A stretch of DNA of 64,000 nt, from positions 152,729 to 216,728 of the forward strand of contig LSNK01000001.1 of NCBI GenBank assembly GCA_003056085.1, read 5' to 3'. Both the position numbers and the translations under genes were made by a program. The first letter of the stretch is position 1. Every line of letters starts with the position of its first letter. Shown one piece after another: positions 1 to 64,000 of this stretch. The DNA is from Parcubacteria group bacterium M6-OD1-1 (lineage in GTDB: Bacteria > Patescibacteriota > Minisyncoccia > GWC2-36-17 > M10-OD1-4). The notes under the pieces were generated by a model. The model had not been told where the DNA came from, did not search any database, and saw nothing but the letters and a program-made list of their open reading frames with translations.

Positions 1-470
1 GTCTAAAAAGACAGTTAAATTATTGCTTTTATAATCCTGACCTTTAAGAAAAACCTTAATTTTTCACGGTTATCATATTCAATCTAAGAGTCTCCCGGTA
101 ATACTCATAACCGTGAAAGATTGTGGTAATCCTTGTCGAGCAAAGCGTTAAGCATACAACTTACCAATAATTTCAGTAACTTGCTAAACGCTTATCTCTG
201 TCTCAGCACAACGTCAAGCGCATGCGGGGACAACTTCCATTCTTTGCTTAAAAAATGGTCAGATGTCAGTTCGTAATAAAGAATACATCTTCAACATTTG
301 AAATGATAACTATTTTTATATGAATTGATTTTTAAATAACTAACTGCCTTATTTATAAGTATATACGAAAAGTATAAGTTTGGCAATGAGACTTTATCCA
401 CAGAAGATTATAAACATATTAGAATAAACTTATGAATTATTTAATTCTGGTTGTTATTGGAGGATTGAGT

Positions 471-500
471 AAAAGGTGTAAAAGGTGTCAGGTACCTTTT
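471..500. repeat. AAAAGGTGT half-site plus AAAAGGTGTCAGGTACCTTTT palindromic repeat (copy 1)
   Basis: Exact motif shared with copies at 6180-6262, 6509-6530, 8688-8708, 8743-8766 and 10035-10070. Contains the AGGTACCT palindrome and a 7-bp stem followed by a T-run. Confidence 0.7.
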
Positions 501-825
501 ACTTTATTAAATAATAATACAGTTGCACTCAACTGTAACTTTATATGCTCATCCTGTGTCACTTTTTTGCTAAAATAAGGGTGTTCCCGATTTGTTTAAA
601 TTCTTTGATTTGATTACAAATCGCAATCCTCTGGAGGGCTCTAAGTGAGTCGAATATTTAATATAAAATGGCTTGAAAAAGCCTTACCCAAACCTACCCC
701 ACCACGGTTCTAGCACGAGGTGAGCTACCAATTCGAGCGTAGTATTTGCGCTCTAAGTGGGTTGAAAAAAATTCTTATTATGTTATAAAGATACCATAGC
801 TTTTCAAAAACATAGGAGACTACTA

Positions 826-1614
826 ATGAATCAACTGATTGAATTTAAAAATAAGTTTGGCAACACTCTAAGAGGAATTTTGTCAGTAGCCGATAATAAT
901 GAAATTATTTTCTGTATTCATGGTTTTGAAAGAACTTCCACAACGGAAAAAAAATTTAAAGTTGTGGCAGATGCACTTTTAAAAAGTAATACTTCTTCTT
1001 TTAGATTTGATTTTACAGGGACAGGATTATCTGATGGTAACTTTAGCCATACAACAGTTTCAAGTATGACAAATGATTTAAAGCAGGCCTTAAATACAAT
1101 AAATGTAAAAGGAAAGAAAATAAGCGTTATTACTCATAGTCTTGGGGCATGCATAATAGCAAAATTCATTCAAGATAATCCCGACTTTAAATTTAAATCT
1201 ATTGTGTTAATATCTCCTGCTTTAAACCAAAAAGAATTGTTACGTTTATGGTTTGTTGCTTCAAAAATGAAAAAAGAAAATCCAGATCTTAAAATAACTT
1301 GGGAAAACTATAAAGATTATCTTAATGAAGATGATTTTCTTTCTGACTGTGAACGACAAGATAAAATGACTAAATCAAACTATATATCAGCAGGTTATTT
1401 TCTAGAAAATAAAGATATAGACTACTCTGATACTTTATCTAACATGCCAAATATTCTGCATGTGCATGGAGATTCGGATGATAAAGTGCCCTTAGAAAGC
1501 CTGTCCGCTCAATTTCAAAGTCAAATAATAATTCAAGATGGAGATCATAATCTTGAACGACCTGATATAAGAGAACAGTGGTTAGAAAAAGTTATTAACT
1601 TTATAGTAAGTTAA
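826..1614 (+). CDS. alpha/beta-fold serine hydrolase
   Basis: GHSLG-type nucleophile elbow (ITHSLGA). Later HG and D motifs are typical of alpha/beta hydrolases. Confidence 0.55.
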   Translation: MNQLIEFKNKFGNTLRGILSVADNNEIIFCIHGFERTSTTEKKFKVVADALLKSNTSSFRFDFTGTGLSDGNFSHTTVSSMTNDLKQALNTINVKGKKISVITHSLGACIIAKFIQDNPDFKFKSIVLISPALNQKELLRLWFVASKMKKENPDLKITWENYKDYLNEDDFLSDCERQDKMTKSNYISAGYFLENKDIDYSDTLSNMPNILHVHGDSDDKVPLESLSAQFQSQIIIQDGDHNLERPDIREQWLEKVINFIVS

Positions 1615-2094
1615 TCATAAGCCGTATGGTTCGTCCAACGGCTTTTTCTTTCGCCTATATACGGGGTTATTTGAAATAATAGGGTATTTTGCTAAAATTA
1701 AGAGTGCTCTATGTGGGTCGAATGTTTAATACAAAATAGCTTGAAAAAACCCGACTCGCTACGCTCCCTGAGCTGCTGTTTATTAGCCAATCACTACACC
1801 TAAAGGTACTGCGTTTTAAAACCAATCGCTCTGCTCTTGGATAAAACGGGAGTATTCTTGGACAAACAGGGAGCATTTACCACCCTACCTTACCAATTTT
1901 GTCCAAATTTTAATTTAACAACAAAACGTTCCCGATTTATTCAAATTTTTAATTTGATAATAAATCGCAATACCCTTGTGGCGCAGTCCTCTTGAGGGTT
2001 TGGGCTCTAAGCGGGTCACTCTTAACCAAAACCCACAGATTTAAATCTGTGGGTTTTGGTTTTCCTAAAAGGGTTCCTGACCCCTTATTTTCTT

Positions 2095-3678
2095 CTATAA
2101 TCTACCATGTGTCTCGAGTATTTTCTCAACCTGTTCTTGTGTAAGCGACAGCCAAGGAGAGTTATCAGGATTGGAAGCTGCGGCAGCTGGACTTTCTCCT
2201 TGATTCCACCATTTTGCTTGAAAAGGCACACCATCAAAAAGTACACGATTGCCAGCATTGTATATTACTGTTCCAGACCAATTCTGGTATGTGCCCACTG
2301 GTAATGTTGGTGGCTGAATTGGTTTTTCGCCTGGCAAAACAGGTCCAATCAATTTCCATGATGTTTCCCATAATTGTAAGACCGGATTATCTGGCAGGTC
2401 ACCTCTTGTCCACCACTTTGCCTCATAGACATTACCGCGCCATACTATTTTTGTTCCTCTCGGATATGCTCCGGTTTCTTTCCAGACTTGATATGGACTT
2501 TTTTTAGGATTATCAACTACTTGATAGTTGATCTCAGAATCTTCTACTGTTAATAATTTAGCATTTTGCATAAGGTCTCCATCAAAACCAGCGCTTAGAC
2601 TCTTTGTAAAAGCAAATTGAGGATATGATACTCCGCTACATGCATCAGAAACAACCTTTACATTAACATAGTTTTCTCCGCACGGAATATCTCTATTAGC
2701 TGACCACATTGACATTCGACCAGCGCCTTGATTATATGCAAATAGATTAAGCATCTTAGCATCCTCCAATGTAAAGATCTCTTCCAAAAAATCATTTTGA
2801 CCAATCATTGGAGTTGCACCAATTTTTTGCCATAATGAATTACTACTCAAGCTTATTCCTGCTTGTTTATATAAAACTCCCAATTGACGATGGCTCTCAA
2901 TCAATGCTATTTTTGATGCCTCAAACATTGAATCTTCTTGGTCGCGGCTGGCACCATAATCCATAGTCATTACATTAACTCCGGATAAGTCAACTCCACT
3001 CGATAACATCTGAGTTATAACATCCGTACCTTCCTTCGTCATACCTTGCGGAGACACTGGTAACGTCAGCCAGATAGATAGATCTTCTTCGTTATCTCGA
3101 TAGTACTTTTGTAGCTGTGCAATGACATCCGCACGGCGCTTAGACGCATCAATGTCTACTAATCCCTGATTTTCAAGATCTAAATCTATCGTATTGATAT
3201 TATAATGTTCTATAACAGACTTGTAAGCATCAAATAATTCTTTTTCATCGGTACATTTAAGAGCAAGTTCAGAATTTAGCGCACCACCAAAAGAAATTGC
3301 TATTCTACCTCCCTGTTGTTGAAGTCTAGCAATTCTACGATCAAGATCGAGAGATACTGCCGCCTCACTCATTGTATAATATCCTCCCCAAGTAGGAATA
3401 CAGGGATCCATTGCATCAGAGACAATGAAAGAAAGAATAACATCAGATTTTGTATTTAATCCTAATTTTTCAAATGCGTAAGTAGGTGTGGATGTTACGT
3501 CTACGTATGCAGCAAACCATGGACCATATTCAGCCCTAGATTTATTCTCCTGCCACCCCTCAAAACTAAGAGACACACCATAAATAAGGCCAATAAAAAT
3601 AACAATAACATACACTAATCTTAGGAGAGAGAGTCGTCTTTTTGGTTCGCTATTTATTTGTGTGCCAGAATTTTTCAT
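2095..3678 (-). CDS. GH18 chitinase-like glycoside hydrolase with two C-terminal CBM5/12 chitin-binding modules and an N-terminal membrane anchor
   Basis: DxDxE catalytic motif (TIDLDLEN) and the MxYD motif (MTMDYG) of GH18. Two AKWW(T/N)(R/Q)G repeats typical of CBM5/12. Hydrophobic N-terminus. GC visibly higher than surrounding genes. Confidence 0.7.
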   Translation of the reverse strand: MKNSGTQINSEPKRRLSLLRLVYVIVIFIGLIYGVSLSFEGWQENKSRAEYGPWFAAYVDVTSTPTYAFEKLGLNTKSDVILSFIVSDAMDPCIPTWGGYYTMSEAAVSLDLDRRIARLQQQGGRIAISFGGALNSELALKCTDEKELFDAYKSVIEHYNINTIDLDLENQGLVDIDASKRRADVIAQLQKYYRDNEEDLSIWLTLPVSPQGMTKEGTDVITQMLSSGVDLSGVNVMTMDYGASRDQEDSMFEASKIALIESHRQLGVLYKQAGISLSSNSLWQKIGATPMIGQNDFLEEIFTLEDAKMLNLFAYNQGAGRMSMWSANRDIPCGENYVNVKVVSDACSGVSYPQFAFTKSLSAGFDGDLMQNAKLLTVEDSEINYQVVDNPKKSPYQVWKETGAYPRGTKIVWRGNVYEAKWWTRGDLPDNPVLQLWETSWKLIGPVLPGEKPIQPPTLPVGTYQNWSGTVIYNAGNRVLFDGVPFQAKWWNQGESPAAAASNPDNSPWLSLTQEQVEKILETHGRL

Positions 3679-3684
3679 ATTGTA

Positions 3685-5913
3685 TTAGCTATTTCTATTT
3701 ACTAATATTTTTCTCCATTTTAATTTTGGTATAATTTTGATTAATTTATGTAATAACTCTTCCTGAGGAATCTCTACATAAAGCATATCCTTAAAAGCAA
3801 GCCAAATATCAACGATTAAATTTTTAAATCCAATATATGCAACAATTGCCCATAAAGCAGCAAAAGCATTAAATCCAGCAAATGCTGCATTACCCCAATT
3901 TTCACCTTCAATGTTCCGCCACAATGTGAAAATTGAAAAGCTAACAATAAGTATTGGTGCTATTAAATACGGCCATGCCGTAGCTGTTCTATTTTTAATC
4001 TTAGGGGTTCTGGCAAATGGTATTTTTTTGGTTGTTATTGCTTGCTGTAAAGACTTAAGCGTTCCTGCAATATTTACTGGAAGCAATATCAGATTAAAAC
4101 CATAAATACGCATGATGTCACTATATTTATAACGACAGTATTTTAAATCCATAGACATGGCTAAAAAATAAGGTGCCGCAGCAAGTAGTACAAGCGGACT
4201 TAATAATCGTCCATCGTATGGATATGCTAAAAGAAATATCAAACCAATATTTGACCATGCTATTGATGACATATAATTGGCTCTAATCAAAAATTCAAGC
4301 TTCGACAATGGTCTGCCTTCGTGTTTTAGTTTATTAAATAATTTCAATAATTTTGGAAAAATTAGCAATCCCCCATTTGCCCAGCGCTGACGCTGCACAA
4401 CTAAAGATCCGAAATCAGATGGTGTTGCACTATAACTCAAACGCTCTGGATAGTTAACTAATCTCCAGTCATGAAGTGCTAAATCAATGCTTGATTCGGT
4501 GTCTTCTATAACCGTATGATCTTGCACATATCTTTTTATTTCAAACCCACCAATCCATTCTTTTTCAACAATATCCTCAAGAGCATTTTTTCGTATGACA
4601 GCATTAGCTCCAACCCAAAAAGCCGCATTGTAATAACTCATTCCCTGATGAATAATGTGTTGGATATCAGTCGTGGCACCAGACAATCTCTCAAGGCGAG
4701 ATGGAGCCCCTCTAAATGAAGAATACGGTGTTTGTACAACAGCAACATCAGCATTGTTAGGCTGTTGTAAAAAATAGACCAAACGCAAGCAATATTCTCG
4801 TAGTAATATAGAATCAGCATCTAATGTAAGTATAAAATCACTATCCCTAACGATTAGGTCAGTACTCTTTTTATCTTTAGTCGGCATTAAAATAGTCCCT
4901 TCAAGCGACTGTTCTTTTCTATATGTACCTCCCATGAGTCCGATATATGAATTGAGATTCATTGCCTTGTTTAATTCATGAGACAAAGAAATATACCTTT
5001 TTCGTTCAAATAGTTCTATCTTTACACCAAATATCCATACAAGCCTATTATATAGTTGTTCTATACGAGTCTTAGAAAATTGAGTACCTTGCTTTTGCGA
5101 GACTATCAGTTCTTCCCCTGTTTTTTGTAGGTCTTTGGCTAGTTCACGTAAAATTTGATCTGCAAAAAACACATCAACGTGATCATCAATGACCTCTTTC
5201 TCTGCTAAGCTTTCCAGCCACTGGGCTGCCCACATATACTGCTCAGATACTTTTAAAACAGCATTTCCTACAGATTTTCTATCTTTAAAATTACTCCCTT
5301 TAAACTGGGTCAGTATTTTATTAAAACGTTTATATGGTTCAGCTAAAAGAGCTTCTATCTCACTGCTTAATGCATGCGTCTCTTCGATTCTATCTCTATC
5401 TTCTGGACGAACCTTAAAAGGATCGTCATCGAGCAACAGGACTACACGAATATCCGGATATTCTTGAAGCGCTGCGGATAGTAATGTTTTTCGAATAACC
5501 TGAACTTCTTCACTATATGAGGGAACTAAAACAGTTATTGATGGTTGGTGGGTATAAAAATGTTCATCAAGTAAACGTTGAGGAGTACGAATATGCTTTT
5601 TAAAACGTTGTAAGGCGCCTTGTCGTGCAATCAAATACACTAATGCAGATAGGGTTAAAAAAGATACAATAACAGAATAGCCAAAAACTTCCACCGTAAA
5701 TTGATAATTTTGGGGACCATCAATAAGTTGGCGAATAATCACCGAAGTGATATACATCAACCAAAATAGTATTGTTAGTACAATTGCTATCCTACTAAAA
5801 GCTATTGCAAAATCCGAGGGCTTTTCATGAAGGATAGATAACACAGGCATCTCTTTTTCAGAACCCCATTGTCTTTTATAAAAATCCTGCTTGTTACGAT
5901 ATTTTTTATTCAC
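3685..5913 (-). CDS. processive family-2 glycosyltransferase (cellulose/chitin/PNAG-synthase-like)
   Basis: DAD (LTLDADS) and QRQRW (Q-x-x-R-W) motifs. Multiple N- and C-terminal hydrophobic segments. Only 6 bp from the GH18 gene. Confidence 0.7.
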   Translation of the reverse strand: MNKKYRNKQDFYKRQWGSEKEMPVLSILHEKPSDFAIAFSRIAIVLTILFWLMYITSVIIRQLIDGPQNYQFTVEVFGYSVIVSFLTLSALVYLIARQGALQRFKKHIRTPQRLLDEHFYTHQPSITVLVPSYSEEVQVIRKTLLSAALQEYPDIRVVLLLDDDPFKVRPEDRDRIEETHALSSEIEALLAEPYKRFNKILTQFKGSNFKDRKSVGNAVLKVSEQYMWAAQWLESLAEKEVIDDHVDVFFADQILRELAKDLQKTGEELIVSQKQGTQFSKTRIEQLYNRLVWIFGVKIELFERKRYISLSHELNKAMNLNSYIGLMGGTYRKEQSLEGTILMPTKDKKSTDLIVRDSDFILTLDADSILLREYCLRLVYFLQQPNNADVAVVQTPYSSFRGAPSRLERLSGATTDIQHIIHQGMSYYNAAFWVGANAVIRKNALEDIVEKEWIGGFEIKRYVQDHTVIEDTESSIDLALHDWRLVNYPERLSYSATPSDFGSLVVQRQRWANGGLLIFPKLLKLFNKLKHEGRPLSKLEFLIRANYMSSIAWSNIGLIFLLAYPYDGRLLSPLVLLAAAPYFLAMSMDLKYCRYKYSDIMRIYGFNLILLPVNIAGTLKSLQQAITTKKIPFARTPKIKNRTATAWPYLIAPILIVSFSIFTLWRNIEGENWGNAAFAGFNAFAALWAIVAYIGFKNLIVDIWLAFKDMLYVEIPQEELLHKLIKIIPKLKWRKILVNRNS

Positions 5914-6020
5914 AATTTTTTATATTATAGTTGTTATATTCTTTTAATTGAGAAATTTTACTCAACAATCATATATATAACATTATTGCGTTCATAAAAT
6001 AACAAAAAAATGATATTTTG

Positions 6021-6180
6021 TCAAGGTTTATAGCATTGCAGCGTCAAGTTTACACTTGCCTTCTCTTCTAATTTTTCAATAGGAGTCATGCCATCCATAC
6101 CCAATCCTCTATGCTTCTTTTGGTAGTTGTAGTAATGAAGAAATAAATTAAGTTTGTATTGCATTTCATCTAAAGAAGAA
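6021..6180 (-). pseudogene. C-terminal fragment of a DDE (rve-type) transposase, truncated at a repeat copy
   Basis: Minus-strand translation gives LDEMQYKLNLFLHYYNYQKKHRGLGMDGMTPIEKLEE, the typical C-terminal tail of IS3/IS481-like integrase cores. The upstream part is missing. Confidence 0.4.
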
Positions 6181-6262
6181 AAAGGTGTCAGAAGAAAAAG
6201 GTGTCAGGTACCTTTTATTTTATTAAATAAAATACAAGTAAAAAGGTGTCAGGTACCTTTTT
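6180..6262. repeat. three tandem copies or half-copies of the AAAAGGTGTCAGGTACCTTTT repeat
   Basis: aaaaggtgtcag, then aaaaaggtgtcaggtacctttt, then aaaaggtgtcaggtacctttttt. The 3' flank (attttattaaataa-aatac) is also conserved with copy 1. Confidence 0.7.
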
Positions 6263-6280
6263 TCCCTCTTTCTATGCCCC

Positions 6281-6574
6281 ATGCATATTGGGAAAGATTT
6301 TTTCAACGACTTGATAGCTTTTATGACATCTGGACCATCTGAACTCTTCATACTTCGTAGAAAAAATGGTAAAGACACTCTACGTGGTAAGTTTGACACA
6401 AATATAAGGTGTAATGCGGTGCATTCACTAAATAGTGAAGAAAATTGGGTAAATAGAATAATTGATAAATTTAAGTTGGATATAACTACAAAGAAAGAGG
6501 AAGACCTAAAAAAGGTACCTGACACCTTTTCTTTACCTCTGGCAATGTTTCAAGTAGAAACACTTGCGAGATGA
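6281..6574 (+). CDS. hypothetical small protein between inverted repeat copies
   Basis: 97-aa ORF only, with no recognisable motif. Bounded by inverted copies of the 21-bp repeat. Confidence 0.25.
   Translation: MHIGKDFFNDLIAFMTSGPSELFILRRKNGKDTLRGKFDTNIRCNAVHSLNSEENWVNRIIDKFKLDITTKKEEDLKKVPDTFSLPLAMFQVETLAR
6509..6530. repeat. inverted copy of the AAAAGGTGTCAGGTACCTTTT repeat
   Basis: aaaaaggtacctgacacctttt is the reverse complement of the motif. Together with 6240-6262 it brackets the small ORF 6281-6574. Confidence 0.65.
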
Positions 6575-6709
6575 AACAAGTAGTCGCACCTACACGAGCA
6601 AGTACTAAGATTTTATCATAAAAATACAAAAAGAAAAAAGCCCCCGCACCAAAAAATTGGAGCGGAGGCTCAAGGTTTCAAGAGGAACAAGTCCTCAAGA
6701 GTTCAAGGT

Positions 6710-7501
6710 TCAGATTTTCCGAGCAGACGAAATGCCGAGCCCACTGCTACGGCCGCCATCCCAGCTGCCGTCGACATCGAGACCACCCCCACCGAAACCA
6801 CCGACGTAGATGTGGAACCCTTCCGCATCAACAGACGAAGTCCTGACATAGAACCCCTGAAGCAAGTAAGTACCACGAATCTTGAAGTAGGCGGTGACAG
6901 CATAGCTGACTTCGGAGGTGTTCGGAACGTGCTCAACCTCGGTGATGAGGTCTTTTTGTTCCTTCCACGTCTTACTGAACGAGTTAGGATAGCCTTCCTT
7001 ACGGATAGCGAGCCACTGTCCAGCTTTGACCATATCGGTCTTGGCGAACTTTTGGCTGTCGTTGGTGTACCACCCTTCGGTCTTCGAGTAGAAGAGTTGG
7101 TTTTCAAGCTCACGAACCTCGAGGAGGTTCATCTCCGTCTGTGGTCCTGCCAAGAGTATATACCCGTGACTATGGAACCACTGAAGGGTTTTCTCATCGG
7201 GAAGAGTTTCAGCGAGATGTTTGAGTTGGTTCTCACTGTAGCTGAAGCCGTAAGCTCCTGCCACTTCCTCGGGTGAGATGAAATCATCACCCAAAATGAG
7301 ATTGGCGAGTTCATATCCTTTCGGAGCATCATCACCACGTGCGATGGAAATCGCACGTACCATTCTTCCCTTGTTTTCAATTAACTCCTGAAGAAAATCA
7401 GGGGTTCCACCTTGTCTGCCGAACTCGGCAACGAACTCGTAGGCTTGACCGAGCGAAAAATCACTCGGCTTGCTGTGAGCTACACGATTTGCTGTTTTCA
7501 T
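6710..7501 (-). CDS. hypothetical protein of foreign (very high GC) composition
   Basis: 263-aa ORF with GC far above its flanks. Overlapping ORFs on other frames are typical artefacts of high GC. Gly-rich C-terminus (GGFGGGGLDVDGSWDGG). Confidence 0.5.
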   Translation of the reverse strand: MKTANRVAHSKPSDFSLGQAYEFVAEFGRQGGTPDFLQELIENKGRMVRAISIARGDDAPKGYELANLILGDDFISPEEVAGAYGFSYSENQLKHLAETLPDEKTLQWFHSHGYILLAGPQTEMNLLEVRELENQLFYSKTEGWYTNDSQKFAKTDMVKAGQWLAIRKEGYPNSFSKTWKEQKDLITEVEHVPNTSEVSYAVTAYFKIRGTYLLQGFYVRTSSVDAEGFHIYVGGFGGGGLDVDGSWDGGRSSGLGISSARKI

Positions 7502-7912
7502 CGCAGTACTCCTTTTATGCCAAGTTCGCTTTGACTATTGCGGTCTGTCTCGATATGAGATAAACATTATATATACCAGTGATTTGATATACAGAATGCT
7601 TATCTCATACAAGTTTTGAACCTTTTTATTACTGTAAAAGAACTATAAACACAGTATAACACTTTATATTATATATGTCAATAGTTCGCTATTTTCTGTT
7701 CCATATGAGCATTTATGTTGAGATTTGCTTTAATGGGCTAAAACAAGCATTTCTTCAAGGTTTTGAATTGAACTCTTGATATAATCTCTCTGTGAAACAA
7801 GTTCTGAAAGCCAAGCAGAGGGGCTACCAATTTGAGCGTAGTTATTATGCACAAGGTACGTTGTAGACAACTCACTATATAAAAAATCAATCATCTGCGG
7901 TAAGATTAAAAC

Positions 7913-8326
7913 ATGAAACCAATATATCTACAATTTAACTGCAAGGAATCTAATGAGCTGGACATGCGTCAAGCTGATGCAATTTTAAAGTATAAGCCTG
8001 ATATCATAATTCTTGAGTATCCGAACAACAACAAAACTCCTAACCTGCCTCTTAATAAATATTCCGCTTTAAAAAAGCCAAAAAACTTAGTAAAAAAACG
8101 CCTCAAAAAGTTTTCTGATAAAGTTTTAAAAATTCATCCCTGGGCTGAAGCAGACACTATAATGTGGAAGAATGTTGCGAGCCTTTGGGAAAAAGATCAT
8201 CAAGTTTTAATATATTCAGTAGATGCCCCAAACGAGCTGACAGAAGAACTGCGAGAAGTATGGAACTATACATATCCATGTATTAAAAAAAAATTGGATA
8301 TGGTGGGTAAGAATATACTTGCGTGA
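7913..8326 (+). CDS. hypothetical protein
   Basis: ORF only. Abuts the next ORF by an 8-bp overlap. Confidence 0.35.
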   Translation: MKPIYLQFNCKESNELDMRQADAILKYKPDIIILEYPNNNKTPNLPLNKYSALKKPKNLVKKRLKKFSDKVLKIHPWAEADTIMWKNVASLWEKDHQVLIYSVDAPNELTEELREVWNYTYPCIKKKLDMVGKNILA

Positions 8327-8579
8327 GAAGATTATGGCAAAAAACATTCAATGGATATTAGACAACTACAAAGAAAAGAAAGAGCCTAAAGTTTTAGTAT
8401 TTTTACAAAGCTTTCATTGGGATCATGTAAAATTTTTACTAAACAATCCATCTAAAAATAAGATATGGAACTACTATTTCGGAAATTTTTCTGAAATAGA
8501 CAAACAAAGCATCGGAAACAAAATAAAAAATATAAACAAGGTATTTTATAAATATTGGAGTAAAATATCTGATTTTTAA
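8319..8579 (+). CDS. hypothetical protein (probable true start at ATG 8334)
   Basis: ORF only, with overlap and possible coupling to the previous ORF. Confidence 0.3.
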   Translation: MREKIMAKNIQWILDNYKEKKEPKVLVFLQSFHWDHVKFLLNNPSKNKIWNYYFGNFSEIDKQSIGNKIKNINKVFYKYWSKISDF

Positions 8580-8687
8580 TATACAGTAAACTTTTTGGAT
8601 TCAGCTTAAGGATGAATCCTCCACCAAACGCTCCAAATACACCATTTGGAGCGTTTGGTGCATTATAAGAGAGAAAGGTGGAGAAAT

Positions 8688-8766
8688 GTGTCAGGTACCT
8701 TTTATTTTATTAGAGTAAGAAAAGATATCATGAAAAAGGTAGCAGGTATCTTTTTTCCTAAGAATT
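8688..8766. repeat. two degenerate copies of the AAAAGGTGTCAGGTACCTTTT repeat
   Basis: gtgtcaggtaccttttatttt at 8688-8708 and aaaaaggtagcaggtatctttttt at 8743-8766. Confidence 0.55.
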
Positions 8767-8831
8767 TAATAAATAGCCAGCTCATTTCGTAGTGAAAATA
8801 ATAGAGCAAAACCAAAGAAATCCTTTCCTTT

Positions 8832-9878
8832 TTAATTAAAATAATTATTTACAGCGTCTTCAAATTGCTCGATAAATATTTTTTTAAAATAAAAAATATT
8901 ATTTATCTCATAGAATAATAAGCTTGCCTTTTTGTATTCCCCAACATCTACAATCCTATAAGAAAATGGTATTGAATTATGTGCTAATAAAATAGCATTT
9001 GAAAGCATACGAGCTGTTCTTTTATTTCCATCCTCAAAAGCCTGAATATATGAAATTAAAATTAACCCAAGAAAAGCTTTTTCAAAAAATAATTCTTTTT
9101 TATTTATTAGGTCAATCATTCTTTCTAAGACTTCCTTAAGTTGAAATAAATTATCCAATGGCTTATATTTTGTAGCAGTAATACCCACCGCATTATTCCT
9201 AATATTTTTTGTAATATTAAGTTTTTTGGTTAAAACAGAATGAATATATTCAATATCAGAATAATTTAATTTTTTAAATCTCTCTTTGTTTAAAATAGAC
9301 TCATTAAAAGCATCTTTATGATTAAGAATCATTTGAGTCTCTTTTTCCGTTTTTCCTTTCCCAACAATATTTTCCTTAATCAAAGCTTCCGTACTTAAAA
9401 GTGAGTAAGTATTTCCCTCTATGACTGAAGATTTCCAAGAAAATTCAATCATTATTCTTTCAAATTCTTTATTTATAAGAGTTTGACTATCATATTCAGA
9501 AAAATTTTTTATAAACTCCCTTTGTAATTTTTCAATTTTTGCCTTTTCTTCTTTAGTGAAAATATCACCTTCCAAAATATTAAAAATTTCAAAATTAAAA
9601 CTTTTTTTTACTTCTCTTTCTGTGTATGGAATAGAAAAATATTTTTTAGCATCAATTTTATTTATAATTTCATAATTTTCAGACAAAGAGTAGATTACGC
9701 CTCTTCCTAATCCTTTTTTAAAAATTAAAAACTTTTCTTCTAGTTCTTTTAAATCTCTTTGTAGTGTTTTTCTATCAATATCCACACTCAAAAAAGACAG
9801 AATATCAGACACCGATACTTCTGTCCTTTTCTTTATAAAAGTAATAATTTTATCTTGTCTTTTTTGCTTTTTATTCAT
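8832..9878 (-). CDS. Fic/DOC-family protein with N-terminal winged-helix domain and a degenerate Fic motif (QAFEDGNKRTAR)
   Basis: The core motif aligns to HPFx(D/E)GNGRxxR. His is replaced by Gln and the second Gly by Lys. Basic N-terminal HTH-like region. Confidence 0.6.
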   Translation of the reverse strand: MNKKQKRQDKIITFIKKRTEVSVSDILSFLSVDIDRKTLQRDLKELEEKFLIFKKGLGRGVIYSLSENYEIINKIDAKKYFSIPYTEREVKKSFNFEIFNILEGDIFTKEEKAKIEKLQREFIKNFSEYDSQTLINKEFERIMIEFSWKSSVIEGNTYSLLSTEALIKENIVGKGKTEKETQMILNHKDAFNESILNKERFKKLNYSDIEYIHSVLTKKLNITKNIRNNAVGITATKYKPLDNLFQLKEVLERMIDLINKKELFFEKAFLGLILISYIQAFEDGNKRTARMLSNAILLAHNSIPFSYRIVDVGEYKKASLLFYEINNIFYFKKIFIEQFEDAVNNYFN

Positions 9879-9896
9879 ATATAAACAATATAATTA

Positions 9897-10002
9897 ATTG
9901 CGACATTTTACAATACTAATTGCGACACCTTTAAAGTATTTATTCATAAAATCGTTATTTATAGCAGTTTTATTGCGACATTTTATAATACTAATTGCGA
10001 CA
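9897..10002. promoter_or_regulatory. four direct copies of ATTGCGACA (two 30-bp units) upstream of the Fic gene, a candidate operator
   Basis: Copies at 9897-9905, 9919-9927, 9972-9980 and 9994-10002, with spacing 22/53/22 bp. They begin immediately upstream of the start codon at 9878. Confidence 0.4.
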
Positions 10003-10034
10003 TATTATAACTCCCCTTGAGAATACCTTTTCCA

Positions 10035-10070
10035 AAAAAGGTGTCAGAAAAGGTGTCAGGTACCTTTTTT
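10035..10070. repeat. half-site plus full copy of the AAAAGGTGTCAGGTACCTTTT repeat
   Basis: aaaaaaggtgtcag followed by aaaaggtgtcaggtacctttttt. Confidence 0.65.
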
Positions 10071-11427: not shown

Positions 11428-12348
11428 TTAACTTTCTAAAACATTAAATCCATTAAATATGGCATCACACATAAAATCTTCCAATAAACTGGAATCTCCA
11501 CTTTGTTGAGACTTATTTAAATAATTATAATAAAATCTTTTATTTTCTTGCTTAATAACTGCTGGCGGTAAATTTCTTCTCAAAAACATCGCTACCACAA
11601 TAAGACGCCCAATTCTTCCGTTGCCATCAGAAAAAGGATGAATTTTCTCAAAATCACTATGTATTTGAGAAATATGTTTTACTACATCATCTTCTTCTTT
11701 ATTTATATTTTTTATTAGCCTTACTACTAACTCTGGGACTTTCAAATAATTAGCAGTAGGAATATTGGCTCCGACAATTCTCACCCCATGATTTCTATAA
11801 AAACCCGCATCATCTCTAATGCTATTCATTAAAATGCTATGTAATTTTAAAATTAATAATTCTGTAATTTTAAAATTTGGCTTAATCTGTTTAAATAAAA
11901 ACTGTAAAGCTGTTTGATGATTTTTAGCCTCTAATTGTTCAATTAAATTTCTGTTTTTCAAAGATATGTTCCGAAATAAAATATCTGCAGTTTCATTTTC
12001 AGTTAAAGTACTGCCTTCTATGCTGTTTGTATTGTAAGTTAAAGATAAAATAAACTGATCATAAATATCTTTACGACTGATGATTTCTTTTAATATGTTT
12101 GTGTATTTTTTTGATTTATTGTAAATAACATCTTTTTTTGCTTGTAAAATATTATCTGGAATAATTTTTTGCCCTGTGTATTTTTTATACAATTCATCAA
12201 TCAACTCCCGCCTTCTTTTGTGAGGAACTGATTTGTTATTGATCCAGCTATTTAAAGTTGCAAAAGACACCTCCAGCTCATAAGCAATTTTTTCTTGAGT
12301 TAAGCCTGAAATTTGTTTAATTAATTTTAGTTTCTCTGATGTATTCAT
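11428..12348 (-). CDS. Fic-family protein (AMPylase-type) with N-terminal XRE-like HTH
   Basis: Canonical HPFSDGNGRIGR motif. N-terminal LTQEKIAYELEVSFATLNSWINNK helix-turn-helix. Confidence 0.8.
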   Translation of the reverse strand: MNTSEKLKLIKQISGLTQEKIAYELEVSFATLNSWINNKSVPHKRRRELIDELYKKYTGQKIIPDNILQAKKDVIYNKSKKYTNILKEIISRKDIYDQFILSLTYNTNSIEGSTLTENETADILFRNISLKNRNLIEQLEAKNHQTALQFLFKQIKPNFKITELLILKLHSILMNSIRDDAGFYRNHGVRIVGANIPTANYLKVPELVVRLIKNINKEEDDVVKHISQIHSDFEKIHPFSDGNGRIGRLIVVAMFLRRNLPPAVIKQENKRFYYNYLNKSQQSGDSSLLEDFMCDAIFNGFNVLES

Positions 12349-43335: not shown

Positions 43336-43382
43336 GTACTGCGTTTTAAAACCAATCGCTCTGCTCTTGGATAAAACGGGAG
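43336..43382. repeat. 47-bp segment identical to 1806-1852
   Basis: gtactgcgttttaaaaccaatcgctctgctcttggataaaacgggag at both loci. Confidence 0.7.
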
Positions 43383-43452: not shown

Positions 43453-43457
43453 ATGTG

Positions 43458-43541
43458 TGCCGGGGAGAGGACTTGAACCTCCACAGGGTTACCCCTAATA
43501 GCTTCTAAGGCTACCGCGTCTACCAATTCCGCCACCCCGGC
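43458..43541 (-). tRNA. tRNA-Leu (anticodon UAG), CCA not encoded
   Basis: Reverse complement reads GCCGGGG-UG-GCGGAAUUGGUAGACGCG-GUAGC-CUUAGAA-GCUAU-long variable arm-GGAGGUUCAAGUCCUCU-CCCCGGC-A. Cloverleaf with anticodon UAG and a type-II long variable arm. Confidence 0.85.
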
Positions 43542-57447: not shown

Positions 57448-57629
57448 GTCTGCTCCTTGTAGCTCGGCATCCCGAGCGGTTGTTTTTTAAAGTCACATCC
57501 CAGCTGACAACTTAATCCATCAGCTTCAAAGACACATTAACATCTTTAGAAAAACTTGTCAATAGCCTGTGGATATGTTATATTATTTTAGTGTTCATTT
57601 AAATGTATTTATCCGGAGCAAATATCAAG

Positions 57630-58062
57630 ATAAATAGACAATCGCTCTTTTGTTTGCTTGCAAGCGAGAGAGAGGAAAGTCCGGACTCCAACTATTATTT
57701 ATAATAGTTAAAACGCAGCGGCTAACAGCCGTCAAAGGAAACTTAGAGGTGCGAGCAGAGACGCCGATATTGGAAACGATATTCGGGCGATTCATTTATT
57801 TGGATCGTAGCCCCTTACTTGCTTGCAAGTAAGGGGGTGAAACGGCTAAATCCTTGCGGGGTGCAAGACAGTATTCCCCTTCACTTGGTTTTTTGAGTAA
57901 ATTTTTAAGTTGAATTTATACTTAAAATTTTCATTCACAAGCCCAAGTGAGGGGGAGGTAGTCGCATGAGCTTATTAGTAATAATAAGCCAAGATAAATG
58001 ATTGTCACCCTTAACTTGCTTGCAAATTAAGGGATACAGAATCCGGCTTATTTTTATCTTTA
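57630..58062 (+). ncRNA. rnpB: RNase P RNA (bacterial)
   Basis: GAGGAAAGUCCGGACUC near the 5' end, GGGUGAAACGG in the middle and ACAGAAUCCGGCUUAU near the 3' end. P1 pairs aagauaaa (5') with uuuaucuu (3'). Terminator at 58128-58158. Confidence 0.85.
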
Positions 58063-58238
58063 TTTGCTCCGAATAAATATATTTAAAATACAAGTTAAAA
58101 ATTCTCAAAAAATTAATTTTAAACATCAAAAAAACCGCTTTTCTAAGCGGTTTTTTTGGTGTTTTTTGGGGTCGGGGATGTAATAAGGTTAGAACCTGTT
58201 TTGTGGGAAAAGTATCTATACCACAATAGAGACTCACA

Positions 58239-62527: not shown

Positions 62528-63871
62528 TTACTCCCAATCAAAATTATAATTAAATTCTGGGACCTTCAGAGGTTCCCCACTCTCTCCAAGTATAGAGGAA
62601 TTAGAAGTATCTAGTATATGAGTTTCATTTGTAATATCGGATATTTCATTTTGTATTATTTTACTTGGATTTGGATTAAACCTTATTCTTACAAAGTCTA
62701 AGTTTTGAAAATCATTAGGTATAGTAAAAATTACATTCCCATCTACAACAGTTATGTTTTCTGCGATACTCCTTGTAGTATTTAAACTATCAACTAAAGA
62801 ATATTGTAAATTTGCTACTTTATACTCAATATTCTCACATAAACAATAGGTTCTAAAAGCTAGCTTCTTAATCTTAAATGGTCTTTCTGATTCAATATCA
62901 AACTTCCTAGGGTCATTTGTATCAGATCTCTTAATGGTAAGTGTTTGGTTTGATGTTTCTAGAGCTCCTGTTTCTGTCTCCTTATTATTACCATTAATAG
63001 ATTCTATTCCATAAGAATACTCAGACCCTGACACTAATCCGCTTATGTTAGCTATGTGCTTTCCAGAGGTTCCTGAAATTGAGAAAAATACTTGAGTTTT
63101 ACCATAGCCAGTTATAAAAACTTTTCCAGTTGTAGGGATATTTGTAGACCATGAAATAACAGCATCAACTAAACCAGGTTCTATTTTTACATCACTAATA
63201 ATAACATTCTCTTCTTCTGGTGTAGTTGTGGTTTCTTCTGTGTTAGTTGTAGTTTCTGTTGTAATTGAATCCTGAGATTCTGTATCATTACTGACTACTT
63301 CTGGAGTTGTATTTTGTTTTACATCACTGAATCTTAATTCTGTTTTTTCTGGATAAAAACTTGGTAATGCTTCTGTATGATTAACTTGATAGATTGAGTC
63401 CCAATCATAGCCAGCCTGTTCAAATTCTGAAGCTGTTAAATTAAGCCATCTTCTTTCTCCACTATCACTACCTGAAGCAGAAGTAACTATATATACTTTT
63501 GGGTCTGCTACTGAACCATCTGCATTAACTTCTATAACAAGCTCCGACAACATGAATTGGTCTTGGTCAGTTTGAGATACTGTCTTTACATCCTCCCATT
63601 TAAGATGCCCATAGGAATTGAAAATATCTGGATTTAGTATAAGTCTTTTAAATTTCTTACTACCTACCAACTTCACAATGTAAATATCTGGATTCTCAGA
63701 AGTAGTTATTAAATCACCATCTACTAATTCCCCTAACGTATACGTTTGAGCAAAAGCTGAAGAATAGATAAAAAAACTAAATACTAATACTAAAAAGATG
63801 GTTATTTTTTTCATATTTATTTTCATATTAATAATTTTTGTAACAAAAAAGGTCCCCCGAACCAGTGACAA
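62528..63871 (-). CDS. secreted surface protein with Thr/Glu-rich linker
   Basis: Signal-peptide-like MKKITIFLVLVFSFFIYSSAFAQ. TTETTTNTEETTTTPEEEN low-complexity linker. Confidence 0.4.
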   Translation of the reverse strand: MSLVRGTFFVTKIINMKINMKKITIFLVLVFSFFIYSSAFAQTYTLGELVDGDLITTSENPDIYIVKLVGSKKFKRLILNPDIFNSYGHLKWEDVKTVSQTDQDQFMLSELVIEVNADGSVADPKVYIVTSASGSDSGERRWLNLTASEFEQAGYDWDSIYQVNHTEALPSFYPEKTELRFSDVKQNTTPEVVSNDTESQDSITTETTTNTEETTTTPEEENVIISDVKIEPGLVDAVISWSTNIPTTGKVFITGYGKTQVFFSISGTSGKHIANISGLVSGSEYSYGIESINGNNKETETGALETSNQTLTIKRSDTNDPRKFDIESERPFKIKKLAFRTYCLCENIEYKVANLQYSLVDSLNTTRSIAENITVVDGNVIFTIPNDFQNLDFVRIRFNPNPSKIIQNEISDITNETHILDTSNSSILGESGEPLKVPEFNYNFDWE

Positions 63872-64000
63872 CTTCTTTTCGAAGTCATCCTGTTCCTTTC
63901 AGAGACAGACCACGGTAGCAGTACTGGTCAGGAGACCATTATTACTACCGTGGATTTACCGCCATGCCTTTAAAAATAAAGGTTTAGGTGATTAAATTGT
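63840..64000. other. GC-rich non-coding patch truncated by the window end (possible structured RNA)
   Basis: Hairpin ccacggtag...ctaccgtgg and other GC-rich stems. No ORF. Incomplete. Confidence 0.15.

What the first reader, a model, noticed from the sequence alone, without database searches (positions are those of the whole stretch)
471..10070. Family of about seven copies of a 21-bp palindromic repeat (AAAAGGTGTCAGGTACCTTTT), often preceded by a half-site
Seen in sequence: exact or near-exact copies at 471-500, 6180-6216, 6240-6262, 6509-6530 (inverted), 8688-8708, 8743-8766 and 10035-10070. All are intergenic and all lie in the first 10 kb, with none seen in the remaining 54 kb. Each locus has the form half-site (AAAAGGTGTCAG or AAAAGGTGT) then the full motif. 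Two loci share a further ~25 bp of 3' flank. The motif contains the AGGTACCT palindrome and folds as a 7-bp stem plus T-run. Copies bracket the GT2/GH18 island edge, a transposase remnant, a small ORF (inverted pair, MITE-like geometry) and the high-GC ORF. Inference: a short interspersed repeat marking accessory DNA. It could be a MITE/IS terminal repeat, a recombination site or a regulator binding site. It is not a simple terminator, because the loop sequence is strictly conserved.
Basis: seen in the sequence. Interest (0 to 1): 0.6.

Follow-up and report, generated by a model that had tools for sequence, protein, structure and literature searches.

The report
End-repeat copies of a hairpin transposase
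The 21-base palindrome repeated in the first 10 kb is the terminal hairpin repeat of a widespread family of small tyrosine (HUH/Y1, "RAYT/TIRYT"-type) transposases. The window holds stray copies of it plus the decayed tail of one such transposase gene, so this is a new example of a known kind of miniature mobile DNA, not a new kind of element.

Summary
AAAAGGTGTCAGGTACCTTTT occurs exactly five times and twice with 2-3 mismatches, all within window 471-10068 (0.01 expected by chance). Four copies are preceded by a truncated 5' copy.

The same exact 21-mer occurs in at least 119 genome stretches from Planctomycetota, Acidobacteriota, Patescibacteria, Proteobacteria and Firmicutes, with unrelated flanks. 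In those loci, all 11 full-length genes for a 224-231 aa Y1_Tnp (HUH) protein carry one copy 47-105 nt upstream of the ATG. They also carry an inverted copy over or just after the stop codon (...RGRPKKGT*, where KGT-stop is encoded by the motif).

In a set of gene relatives found through the protein and not the motif, 44 of 56 genes have such an inverted pair (direct-orientation control: 5 of 56). The core of the pair is GG[GT]G[AT]C[AG], which matches the published GGGGWSAS repeats of "TIRYT" transposases.

The window has no intact transposase gene. Its inverted pair 6241/6510 encloses an ndk fragment fused to the last ~25 codons of such a gene.

The element is not a plain terminator, an operator or a DDE-type MITE. 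Two extra clues point to DNA breakage or strand switching in the hairpin loop: the one-sided "stutter" of partial copies, and a strain-variant breakpoint inside a variant hairpin.

The parts
471..500 (+). Copy A: a 9-nt truncated prefix (AAAAGGTGT, 471-479) followed by an exact 21-mer (480-500).
501..525 (+). A/T-rich 3' flank (ACTTTATTAAATAATAATACAG). It is shared with copy 6196 and partly with copy 8683, so in this genome the unit that was copied is about 35-45 nt.
   Evidence: families D2, D8
2066..2090 (-). Variant hairpin AAAATAAGGGGTCAGGAACCCTTTT (core GGGGTCAG) at the 3' end of the GH18 gene. Strain-variant contig L122 diverges from the window directly after ...GGGTCAGGA, inside the loop.
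6180..6216 (+). Copy B1: a 12-nt prefix (AAAAGGTGTCAG), then AAGA, then an exact 21-mer (6196-6216). The unit AAGAAAAAGGTGTCAG is tandemly duplicated.
6241..6261 (+). Copy B2: an exact 21-mer. It is the left arm of the 33-nt inverted repeat 6241-6273 / 6498-6530 (88% complementary).
   Evidence: I1
6284..6440 (+). ndk (nucleoside diphosphate kinase) fragment. It lacks the first ~53 codons and has a 51-nt internal deletion relative to strain variant L122. It is context only, enclosed by the inverted pair.
6443..6522 (+). Remnant of the last ~25 codons of a RAYT/TIRYT gene (WVNRIIDKFKLDITT..., then a frameshift, then RGRPKKGT-stop). The stop codon TGA lies inside the motif.
   Evidence: The remnant is 60-71% identical at DNA level to the 3' ends of Patescibacteria RAYT genes, against 32-39% for the stretch just before it. 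In a profile HMM search of the six-frame translation of the whole window, the best hit falls exactly here (E = 0.048). A second hit in the adjacent frame continues it in the same order along the profile.
6510..6530 (-). Copy C: an exact 21-mer in inverted orientation. It corresponds to the downstream terminal repeat of the former transposase cassette.
8675..8703 (+). Copy D1: an 8-nt prefix (GAAAGGTG), then GA, then a degenerate copy (GAAATGTGTCAGGTACCTTTT, 2 mismatches).
8734..8754 (+). Copy D2: a degenerate copy (AAAAGGTAGCAGGTATCTTTT, 3 mismatches). With D1 it forms a direct doublet, like B1/B2.
10036..10068 (+). Copy E: a 12-nt prefix directly followed by an exact 21-mer.

Best explanation
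The 21-mer is the terminal inverted hairpin repeat of a family of small HUH/Y1 tyrosine transposases. The family is TnpA_Y1 class 2 and lies closest to subclass 2.1, the 'TIRYT' group. Its sequence signature is NHWH / YQGRY / YVERNP, and the proteins end in an AT-hook-like tail, ...RGRPKKGT.

Shown: an intact element has one copy about 50-100 nt upstream of the gene and an inverted copy across the stop codon. Solitary copies, direct doublets and inverted doublets are scattered in the genomes that carry the gene.

Shown for the window: it holds seven such copies, one diverged variant, and one decayed cassette (6241-6530) that keeps only the last ~25 codons of the transposase.

Inferred, by analogy with E. 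coli TnpA_REP and IS608 TnpA: the enzyme binds the motif folded as a single-stranded DNA hairpin (stem AAAAGGT/ACCTTTT, conserved 5' block ending in CAG). It cuts and rejoins single strands, and this copies or moves the repeat.

Inferred, at lower confidence: the truncated 5' copies, which most often end at ...GTCAG or ...GTCAGG, and the strain breakpoint after ...GTCAGGA are scars of cleavage or strand switching in the loop.

The copies cluster in the first 10 kb because that stretch is variable, pseudogene-rich accessory DNA where insertions are tolerated.
For: Spread of the motif:
- The exact 21-mer occurs in at least 119 genome stretches from five phyla, with unrelated flanks. It was not found in 2.9 million viral contigs.

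Link to the gene:
- Pairs about 700-750 bp apart enclose a 224-231 aa Y1_Tnp protein (PF01797, E 1e-16 to 1e-19). Its best NCBIfam match is REP_Tyr_transpos (below cutoff). Its best PDB match is E. coli TnpA_REP 4ER8 (E 6e-5), with the HUH and Tyr motifs aligned.
- All 11 full-length genes in the motif-derived loci have the motif (0-3 mismatches) 47-105 nt upstream in + orientation and over or after the stop in - orientation. The proteins are only 39-54% identical between phyla.
- Reciprocal test without bias towards the motif: among relatives found through the protein, 44 of 56 genes have an inverted pair matching at 18 or more of 21 positions at those places (direct-orientation control 5 of 56). 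Of these, 36 carry GG[GT]G[AT]C[AG], and the two arms of each gene share the same variant.
- Distant relatives on proteobacterial plasmids (about 30% identity, NHVH/YIELNP, i.e. the subclass 2.1 signature) are flanked by AAAAGGGGTCAGACCCC or AAAGGGGACAG. These match the GGGGWSAS repeats of TIRtrons (PMC3733652).

In the window:
- The tail of the gene lies next to the inverted copy at 6510.

The stutter:
- 31 of 184 exact copies have truncated 5' copies upstream, against 5 with 3' partial copies downstream. Truncations peak at motif positions 12-13.
Against: - No intact transposase gene lies in the 64 kb window or in the 3.8 kb upstream contig L208. Activity in this genome is therefore unproven, and the copies may be fossils.
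- In the papers I read, no enzyme of this subclass has been tested biochemically. Quentin et al. 2018 reported no REP-like sequences for subclass 2.1. Binding, cleavage and mobilisation are inferred.
- The motif lacks the GT[AG]G foot of canonical REPs.
- Copy orientation shows no bias relative to local GC skew (41 vs 51). This differs from the lagging-strand bias known for IS608.
- The window's copies are clustered, not dispersed.
- The segment duplicated with the partial copy often begins with G, GT or GTA, the bases that follow ...CAG in the full motif. Hairpin-induced replication slippage could therefore explain the stutter without any enzyme.
Confidence: 0.8

Rival explanations
1. The copies are intrinsic (possibly bidirectional) transcription terminators or mRNA-stabilising hairpins, kept for that role.
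For: The motif is an A-run, a hairpin and a T-run. The copies are intergenic. D1/D2 lie between convergent genes, and the variant at 2066-2090 lies directly after the GH18 stop. The terminator scan flags copy A and that variant.
Against: The stem is weak (-4 to -5 kcal/mol), and only one of the seven copies is flagged. The loop and stem sequence are identical in genomes of very different base composition and from five phyla, which no generic terminator would show. Copies lie upstream of start codons as well as at stops, as inverted pairs around one gene family. A secondary terminator effect of individual copies is not excluded.
Confidence: 0.05
2. The motif is the operator or binding site of a transcription factor (for example the HTH-Fic proteins encoded nearby), with the 12-nt 'half-site' as a monomer site.
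For: The motif is palindromic and has direct repeats of a 12-nt block. Copies lie upstream of the Fic gene 8832-9878 and of other genes.
Against: The motif occurs across phyla next to unrelated genes. A different repeat, TAATTGCGACA in about five copies at 9894-10024, is the better operator candidate for the HTH-Fic gene. The half-sites carry duplicated local flank, which points to duplication events and not to designed sites.
Confidence: 0.03
3. The motif is a core site for a tyrosine recombinase (Xer-, integron- or shufflon-like), with two 7-bp arms and a 7-bp asymmetric spacer, and it mediates cassette exchange or inversion.
For: The 7-7-7 layout resembles recombinase core sites. One strain-variant breakpoint lies inside a variant copy. 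Inverted pairs 25-40 nt apart are common in other genomes.
Against: I saw no recombinase gene recurring next to the copies. The recurring neighbour is the Y1/HUH gene. The partial copies are one-sided and carry flank duplications, which conservative site-specific recombination does not produce.
Confidence: 0.05
4. The copies are MITEs or end fragments of a DDE-type insertion sequence, such as the one whose rve-like remnant lies at 6021-6164.
For: A weak rve_3 match (E 0.045) lies immediately next to copy B1. The inverted pair 6241/6510 has MITE-like geometry.
Against: The unit is a single 21-bp hairpin with unrelated flanks, not a pair of terminal repeats with target-site duplications. The interior of the inverted pair is an ndk fragment plus a Y1-transposase tail. 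The association with Y1 genes holds in 11 of 11 and 44 of 56 cases.
Confidence: 0.03

Closest known systems
[quoted passage not shown] 2013, PMC3733652), equated with TnpA_Y1 subclass 2.1 / Bertels group 1 by Quentin et al. 2018 (PMC6006769)
   Same: Both have a Y1/HUH gene of about 225-240 aa flanked by inverted repeats at fixed distances, with the downstream repeat overlapping the 3' end of the gene. The repeat core here, GG[GT]G[AT]CAG, matches the published GGGGWSAS. The repeats also occur as solitary, dimeric or clustered copies in the genome. The taxonomic spread is wide and patchy. Plasmid-borne subclass 2.1 relatives carry AAAAGGGGTCAG-type repeats.
   Different: The window's repeat has T at the third G (GGTGTCAG). 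The protein signature is NHWH / YQ / YVERNP, whereas the published one is NHVH or NH[YF]H / W[EQ] or FQ / YIELNP. No DnaA_C-like HTH domain was detected by Pfam. The hosts here include Patescibacteria, which the published surveys did not list among their hosts. Quentin et al. found no REP-like repeats for subclass 2.1.
Canonical REP / REPIN-RAYT systems (E. coli TnpA_REP, PDB 4ER8; Pseudomonas REPINs)
   Same: Both are short extragenic palindromes that flank, in inverted orientation, a gene for an HUH/Y1 enzyme (a REPtron layout), and both proliferate as non-autonomous copies. The Y---NP tyrosine motif is shared. Inverted doublets occur in other genomes carrying this motif.
   Different: The motif has no GT[AG]G guide tetranucleotide at the hairpin foot. 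The same 21-mer is shared across phyla, whereas REPs are typically specific to a species or a RAYT. In the window the doublets are direct, not inverted. The protein is about 60-70 aa longer, with a C-terminal domain and a GRP tail.
IS200/IS605 (TnpA_IS200, e.g. IS608)
   Same: Both have an HUH/Y1 catalytic core and hairpin ends that are recognised as single-stranded DNA. Neither makes target-site duplications.
   Different: IS200 enzymes are about 150 aa with a Y---Q motif. Their two ends are different subterminal hairpins, not inverted repeats. They often carry tnpB. IS608-type elements show a strand bias relative to replication, which is not seen here.

Membership tests
TIRtron / TIRYT (TnpA_Y1 subclass 2.1-like) | A Y1/HUH tyrosine transposase gene (HuH motif plus catalytic Tyr) lies between the repeats | tested here: met
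   Related loci: PF01797 hits. NHWH and YQGRY are present in 120 of 120 homologues, and Y[VI]E[RQ]NP in 104 of 120. 11 of 11 genes are flanked by the motif. In the window itself only the last ~25 codons survive.
TIRtron / TIRYT (TnpA_Y1 subclass 2.1-like) | Inverted repeats flank the gene at conserved distances, with the 3' repeat overlapping the gene end | tested here: met
   The upstream arm starts 37-129 nt before the ATG (mostly 50-60 nt). The downstream arm lies across or just after the stop. This holds for 44 of 56 genes found through the protein, against 5 of 56 in the direct-orientation control.
TIRtron / TIRYT (TnpA_Y1 subclass 2.1-like) | The repeat contains the GGGGWSAS motif | tested here: inconclusive
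   The window motif has GGTGTCAG, one mismatch (G to T at the third position). The window variant at 2066-2090 and many relatives have GGGGTCAG or GGGGACAG.
TIRtron / TIRYT (TnpA_Y1 subclass 2.1-like) | Published subclass 2.1 protein signature (NHVH or NH[YF]H; W[EQ] or FQ; YIELNP or Y[IV]HLNP; C-terminal HTH-like domain) | tested here: not met
   This family has NHWH, YQGRY and YVERNP, and Pfam finds no C-terminal domain. Identity to plasmid subclass 2.1 proteins is only about 30%. It is therefore a sister lineage within class 2 (Y---NP), not a strict member of subclass 2.1.
TIRtron / TIRYT (TnpA_Y1 subclass 2.1-like) | Copies of the repeat also occur away from the gene (single, dimeric, grouped) | tested here: met
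   The window has seven copies without an intact gene. In other genomes many loci carry 1-6 copies with no gene within 8 kb.
Canonical REP / REPIN-RAYT | A 5' GT[AG]G tetranucleotide at the foot of the hairpin | tested here: not met
   No GTAG or GTGG lies at either foot. The flank just upstream is merely a purine (87%), and the base just downstream is T in 61% of copies.
Canonical REP / REPIN-RAYT | REP doublets in inverted orientation (REPINs) as the replicating unit | tested here: inconclusive
   The window's doublets are direct (6196/6241 and 8683/8734). Inverted doublets 25-40 nt apart are frequent in Planctomycetota loci, for example L029, L041, L042, L063 and L086.
Canonical REP / REPIN-RAYT | The cognate enzyme binds and cleaves the folded single-stranded repeat | not testable with these tools
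   This needs a cleavage and strand-transfer assay like that of Corneloup et al. 2021 (PMC8266576).
IS200/IS605 | A ~150 aa TnpA with a Y---Q motif, dissimilar subterminal hairpins, and often tnpB | tested here: not met
   The proteins are 224-231 aa with Y---NP. The ends are inverted copies of one motif. The cassettes are only ~700-750 bp and hold just this one gene, so they have no room for a tnpB. NCBIfam transpos_IS200 scores only 21 bits against a cutoff of 55.
Intrinsic terminator | A stable G+C-rich stem followed by a U-run | tested here: not met
   The fold energy is -5.2 kcal/mol as RNA. Only copy A and the variant at 2069-2086 pass a lenient scan.

The most novel reading that the evidence does not exclude
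The one-sided 'stutter' (flank plus motif positions 1-12/13 duplicated upstream of the full copy) and the strain breakpoint after ...GTCAGGA may be footprints of this transposase lineage cutting inside the hairpin loop, just 3' of the conserved CAG. That would resemble rolling-circle Rep proteins more than IS608 or TnpA_REP, which cut outside the hairpin. The enzyme has not been characterised. If so, one nearly invariant 21-nt substrate has spread by horizontal transfer through at least five phyla, including the small, tightly packed genomes of Patescibacteria, where it would drive local rearrangement of accessory islands.
Probability: 0.25. Interest if true: 0.55.

Novelty: new member of a known kind. 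Interest (0 to 1): 0.35.

Why it matters
The finding assigns a concrete identity to an unannotated repeat, and it explains an odd chimeric ORF (an ndk fragment plus a transposase tail).

More broadly, subclass 2.1/TIRYT enzymes are the largest RAYT-like group, yet in the papers I read they have no assigned substrate. Here a defined 21-nt hairpin, identical across phyla, is tied to one lineage of them. A conserved 12-nt block (AAAAGG[GT]G[AT]CAG) and a candidate cleavage position come with it, so a cleavage and strand-transfer experiment can be designed directly.

It also shows that such elements reach Patescibacteria, where they coincide with strain-level variation. It does not reveal a new kind of system.

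Tried and rejected
- Rfam, at gathering and at E <= 1: no family covers the motif, only noise hits.
- Literature search for the motif sequence on both strands: no relevant paper.
- tblastn and a profile HMM search for an intact transposase in the window: none found, only the 3' remnant.
- I first dismissed the remnant as part of the ndk fragment. DNA alignment with the 3' ends of Patescibacteria genes reversed that.
- Orientation against GC skew, to look for an IS608-like lagging-strand bias: none (41 vs 51).
- Covariation in the stem among variant copies: only pair 4-18 shows compensatory changes (6 of 8). This is too little to prove the fold.
- Phage origin: the exact motif is absent from viral contigs, and only two distant protein relatives were found there.
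- Presence/absence polymorphism of individual copies: the other contigs of this strain are identical to the window or end in the repeats, so nothing could be scored. The one exception is the breakpoint at 2075.
- C-terminal domain of the protein: no Pfam match. Only the R. rubrum relative gives a sub-threshold AT-hook hit.
- Composite-transposon reading of the GT2/GH18 block: the flanking copies (2066-2090 and 6196) face outward relative to the cassette geometry, so I rejected it.
- No structure prediction was run. It would not bear on the identity of the repeat.

Full report
**Observation**

A search for AAAAGGTGTCAGGTACCTTTT allowing three mismatches finds seven copies, against 0.01 expected from shuffles.
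- Five copies are exact: 480, 6196, 6241 and 10048 on the + strand, and 6510 on the - strand.
- Two are degenerate: 8683 (2 mismatches) and 8734 (3 mismatches).
- None lies beyond 10.1 kb.

The 12-nt prefix AAAAGGTGTCAG occurs additionally at 6180 and 10036. A 9-nt prefix lies at 471, and GAAAGGTG lies at 8675. So four of the seven copies are preceded by a truncated 5' copy.

Copies 480 and 6196 share a further A/T-rich 3' flank, and 8683 shares part of it.

The hairpin is real but weak: a 7-8 bp stem, -4.1 kcal/mol as DNA and -5.2 as RNA.

**What surrounds the copies**
- 826-1614 (+): alpha/beta hydrolase.
- 2095-3678 (-): GH18 with CBM5/12.
- 3685-5913 (-): GT2.
- 6021-6164 (-): a 47-aa ORF with a weak rve_3 match.
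- 6281-6574 (+): an ORF with an NDK match.
- 6710-7501 (-): an unassigned ORF.
- 8832-9878 (-) and 11428-12348 (-): HTH-Fic genes.

All copies lie between these genes.

**The decisive result**

The hosts are:
- Planctomycetota (Pirellulaceae, Phycisphaerales, and the isolates Rhodopirellula baltica and R. europaea);
- Acidobacteriota;
- Patescibacteria (Saccharibacteria, Lloyd-, Wolfe- and Adlerbacteria);
- Betaproteobacteria;
- a Pelotomaculum.

It was found in none of 2.9 million viral contigs. The flanks are unrelated, ranging from A/T-rich to G+C-rich, so the conserved unit is about 21-23 nt. Only a purine at -1 and a T at +1 are enriched.

Recurrent inverted pairs about 700-750 bp apart enclose a 224-231 aa ORF.
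- It is a Y1_Tnp / IS200-like HUH protein (PF01797, E 1e-16 to 1e-19).
- Its best NCBIfam model is REP-associated tyrosine transposase, below cutoff.
- Its best solved relative is E. coli TnpA_REP (4ER8, E 6e-5), with the HUH and tyrosine motifs aligned.

All 11 full-length genes in these loci have the motif (0-3 mismatches) 47-105 nt upstream of the ATG in + orientation. They also have an inverted copy across or just after the stop codon. In most of them the ORF ends ...GRPKKGT-stop, with KGT-stop encoded by AAAGGTACCTGA of the motif.

The proteins are only 39-54% identical between phyla, while the repeat is identical or nearly so.

The family is large: at least 7,784 90%-identity clusters at E <= 1e-10. 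In the 120 closest members NHWH and YQGRY are invariant, most have YVERNP or YIERNP, and roughly 40% end in xKGT or xNGT.

**Reciprocal test**

The loci above were collected through the motif, so I also collected relatives through the protein.
- Of 56 full-length genes with enough flank, 44 have an inverted pair matching at 18 or more of 21 positions between the 140 nt upstream and the stop region.
- The same test in direct orientation scores 5 of 56.
- 36 of the 44 contain GG[GT]G[AT]C[AG].

The repeat varies between genes, for example AAATGGGGTCAGCCACCATTT, AAAAGGGGTCGGGAGTCTTTT and AAAAGGTGTCAGGAACCTTTT. The two arms of each gene share the same variant.

**Relation to the literature**

Di Nocera et al. 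2013 (PMC3733652) described RAYT-like genes flanked by terminal inverted repeats instead of GTAG REPs. They called them "TIRtrons", encoding "TIRYTs". Many of those repeats share GGGGWSAS, and some form moderately abundant repeat families.

Quentin et al. 2018 (PMC6006769) equate most TIRYTs with TnpA_Y1 subclass 2.1. Its signature is NHVH or NH[YF]H, W[EQ] or FQ, and YIELNP, with a median length of 238 aa. They report no REP-like sequences for that subclass.

Distant plasmid relatives of the present protein (about 30% identity) have exactly that signature. They are flanked by AAAAGGGGTCAGACCCC (Rhodospirillum rubrum) or AAAGGGGACAG... (Pseudomonas aeruginosa), again upstream of the ATG and inverted after the stop.

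The window's repeat is therefore a variant (GGTGTCAG) of the TIRYT-type terminal repeat. It belongs to a sister lineage with NHWH / YQ / YVERNP. The exact sequence was not found in any searchable paper. Figures are not indexed, so prior depiction cannot be excluded.

**The window itself**

There is no intact gene of this family. The inverted pair 6241/6510 extends to 33 nt at 88% complementarity and encloses two things.
- An ndk fragment at 6284-6440. tblastn with E. coli Ndk gives E 5e-5 over residues 54-129, with a 17-residue gap.
- About 80 nt (6443-6522) that align with the 3' ends of Patescibacteria genes. Identity is 60-71%, against 32-39% for the stretch before it. The stretch reads WVNRIIDKFKLDITT, then a frameshift, then RGRPKKGT-stop.

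With a profile HMM of the family, the best hit in the whole six-frame translation of the window is this spot (E 0.048). A second hit in the next frame continues it in the same order along the profile.

Each piece of evidence is weak alone. Their position, directly against an inverted motif copy, makes a decayed cassette the most likely reading. No target-site duplication flanks the pair, as expected for Y1 enzymes.

**Mechanism**

By analogy with IS608 TnpA and E. coli TnpA_REP (established knowledge; PMC8266576), the enzyme should do three things. It should recognise the motif folded as single-stranded DNA. It should cut with its tyrosine, forming a 5'-phosphotyrosine link. It should then rejoin strands. 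This step is inferred, not shown.

Two observations give hints about where DNA is broken.
- Among 184 exact copies, 31 have truncated 5' copies within 60 nt upstream, but only 5 have truncated 3' copies downstream. Among truncations longer than the detection minimum, 18 of 27 end at motif position 12 or 13 (...GTCAG or ...GTCAGG). In about half of the cases, 5-8 nt of local flank are duplicated together with the prefix.
- A variant hairpin at 2066-2090 (AAGGGGTCAGGAACCCTT) sits at the GH18 stop. Strain-variant contig L122 is 99.5% identical over window 2075-6368 and diverges directly after ...GGGTCAGGA, inside the loop. It continues into different genes.

Both observations fit cleavage or strand switching in the loop. 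However, the duplicated segments often start with G, GT or GTA, the bases that follow CAG in the motif. Hairpin-stalled replication slippage is therefore a simpler alternative.

No orientation bias relative to GC skew was found. Stem covariation is limited to one pair.

**Rivals**

- A generic terminator is excluded as the primary explanation. The sequence is identical across phyla and base compositions, the stem is weak, the copies pair around one gene family, and only one of seven copies passes a lenient terminator scan.
- An operator reading is unsupported. A separate repeat (TAATTGCGACA, 9894-10024) is the better candidate for the HTH-Fic gene.
- A tyrosine-recombinase site or a DDE-type MITE is not supported by gene association.

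**Context**

The window comes from metagenome assemblies. The low G+C, the LOOT RNA and the closest cassette tails suggest a Patescibacteria-like organism. That is an inference.

Upstream contig L208 shows a tRNA-Glu, HTH genes and a reverse transcriptase 0.2-3.8 kb before the window start. Together with the pseudogenes, the Fic genes and the strain variation, this marks the first ~12 kb as accessory DNA, which plausibly explains the clustering of copies.

**Verdict**

It is a new member of a known kind. Interest is moderate to low. The cross-phylum identity and the one-sided stutter are the only unusual features.

Noticed in passing
window 1806-1852 and 43336-43382: A 47-nt exact direct repeat 41.5 kb apart. 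The second copy lies about 75 nt from tRNA-Leu (43457-43541, - strand). It could be an att pair of an integrated element that would contain most of the motif copies.
   Followed up: no
L208 1-3812 (contig extending upstream of window position 1) and window 1-430: Upstream of the window lie tRNA-Glu, several HTH genes and a 318-aa RVT_1 reverse transcriptase. Window 1-430 has no ORF of 60 aa or more and carries an inverted repeat (46-73 / 107-134). It may be an RNA associated with that reverse transcriptase, retron-like or defence-like.
   Followed up: no
window 583-683, 1702-1751, 1928-2020, 724-774, 7823-7873; L122 5526-5615: A second, unrelated repeat family (GTTCCCGATTT...AAATCGCAAT...GCTCTAAGTGRGTCGAA... 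and GCTACCAATTYGAGCGTAG) flanks the hydrolase gene. It is also present in the strain-variant contig.
   Followed up: no
window 9894-10024: About five copies of TAATTGCGACA lie in the region upstream of the HTH-Fic gene (8832-9878, - strand). They look like an operator or iteron array (family D3).
   Followed up: no
window 2024-2061: A perfect 19+19 nt palindrome (AACCAAAACCCACAGATTT/AAATCTGTGGGTTTTGGTT) lies directly beside the variant hairpin at the GH18 3' end. It gives weak psRNA14 hits on both strands, far below threshold.
   Followed up: no
window 6284-6440; L122 1-34: The ndk gene is a pseudogene fragment. The window copy carries a 51-nt deletion relative to the 99.5%-identical strain variant, and no other ndk is present in the 64 kb.
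   Followed up: partly
L122 4311-8177: Downstream of GH18 the strain variant carries NUDIX, RidA-like, ThsB_TIR and S24-peptidase genes in place of the window's hydrolase segment. It also has a 2-mismatch motif copy (AAAAGGTACCTGATCCCTTTT) about 100 nt past the breakpoint.
   Followed up: partly
L056 4446-5117 and 6138-6809; L082 2004-2621 and 3720-4337: Two 100%-identical tandem copies of the Y1 gene lie 1.7 kb apart in an Acidobacteriota genome. A second, different Y1 gene is duplicated in another locus. This multi-copy, IS-like behaviour contrasts with single-copy domesticated RAYTs.
   Followed up: no
window 57626-58065, 63867-63990: RNase P RNA (class A) and a LOOT RNA are present. In my recollection LOOT RNAs belong to candidate-phyla-radiation bacteria, which would fit the assumed host, but I did not check this.
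   Followed up: no
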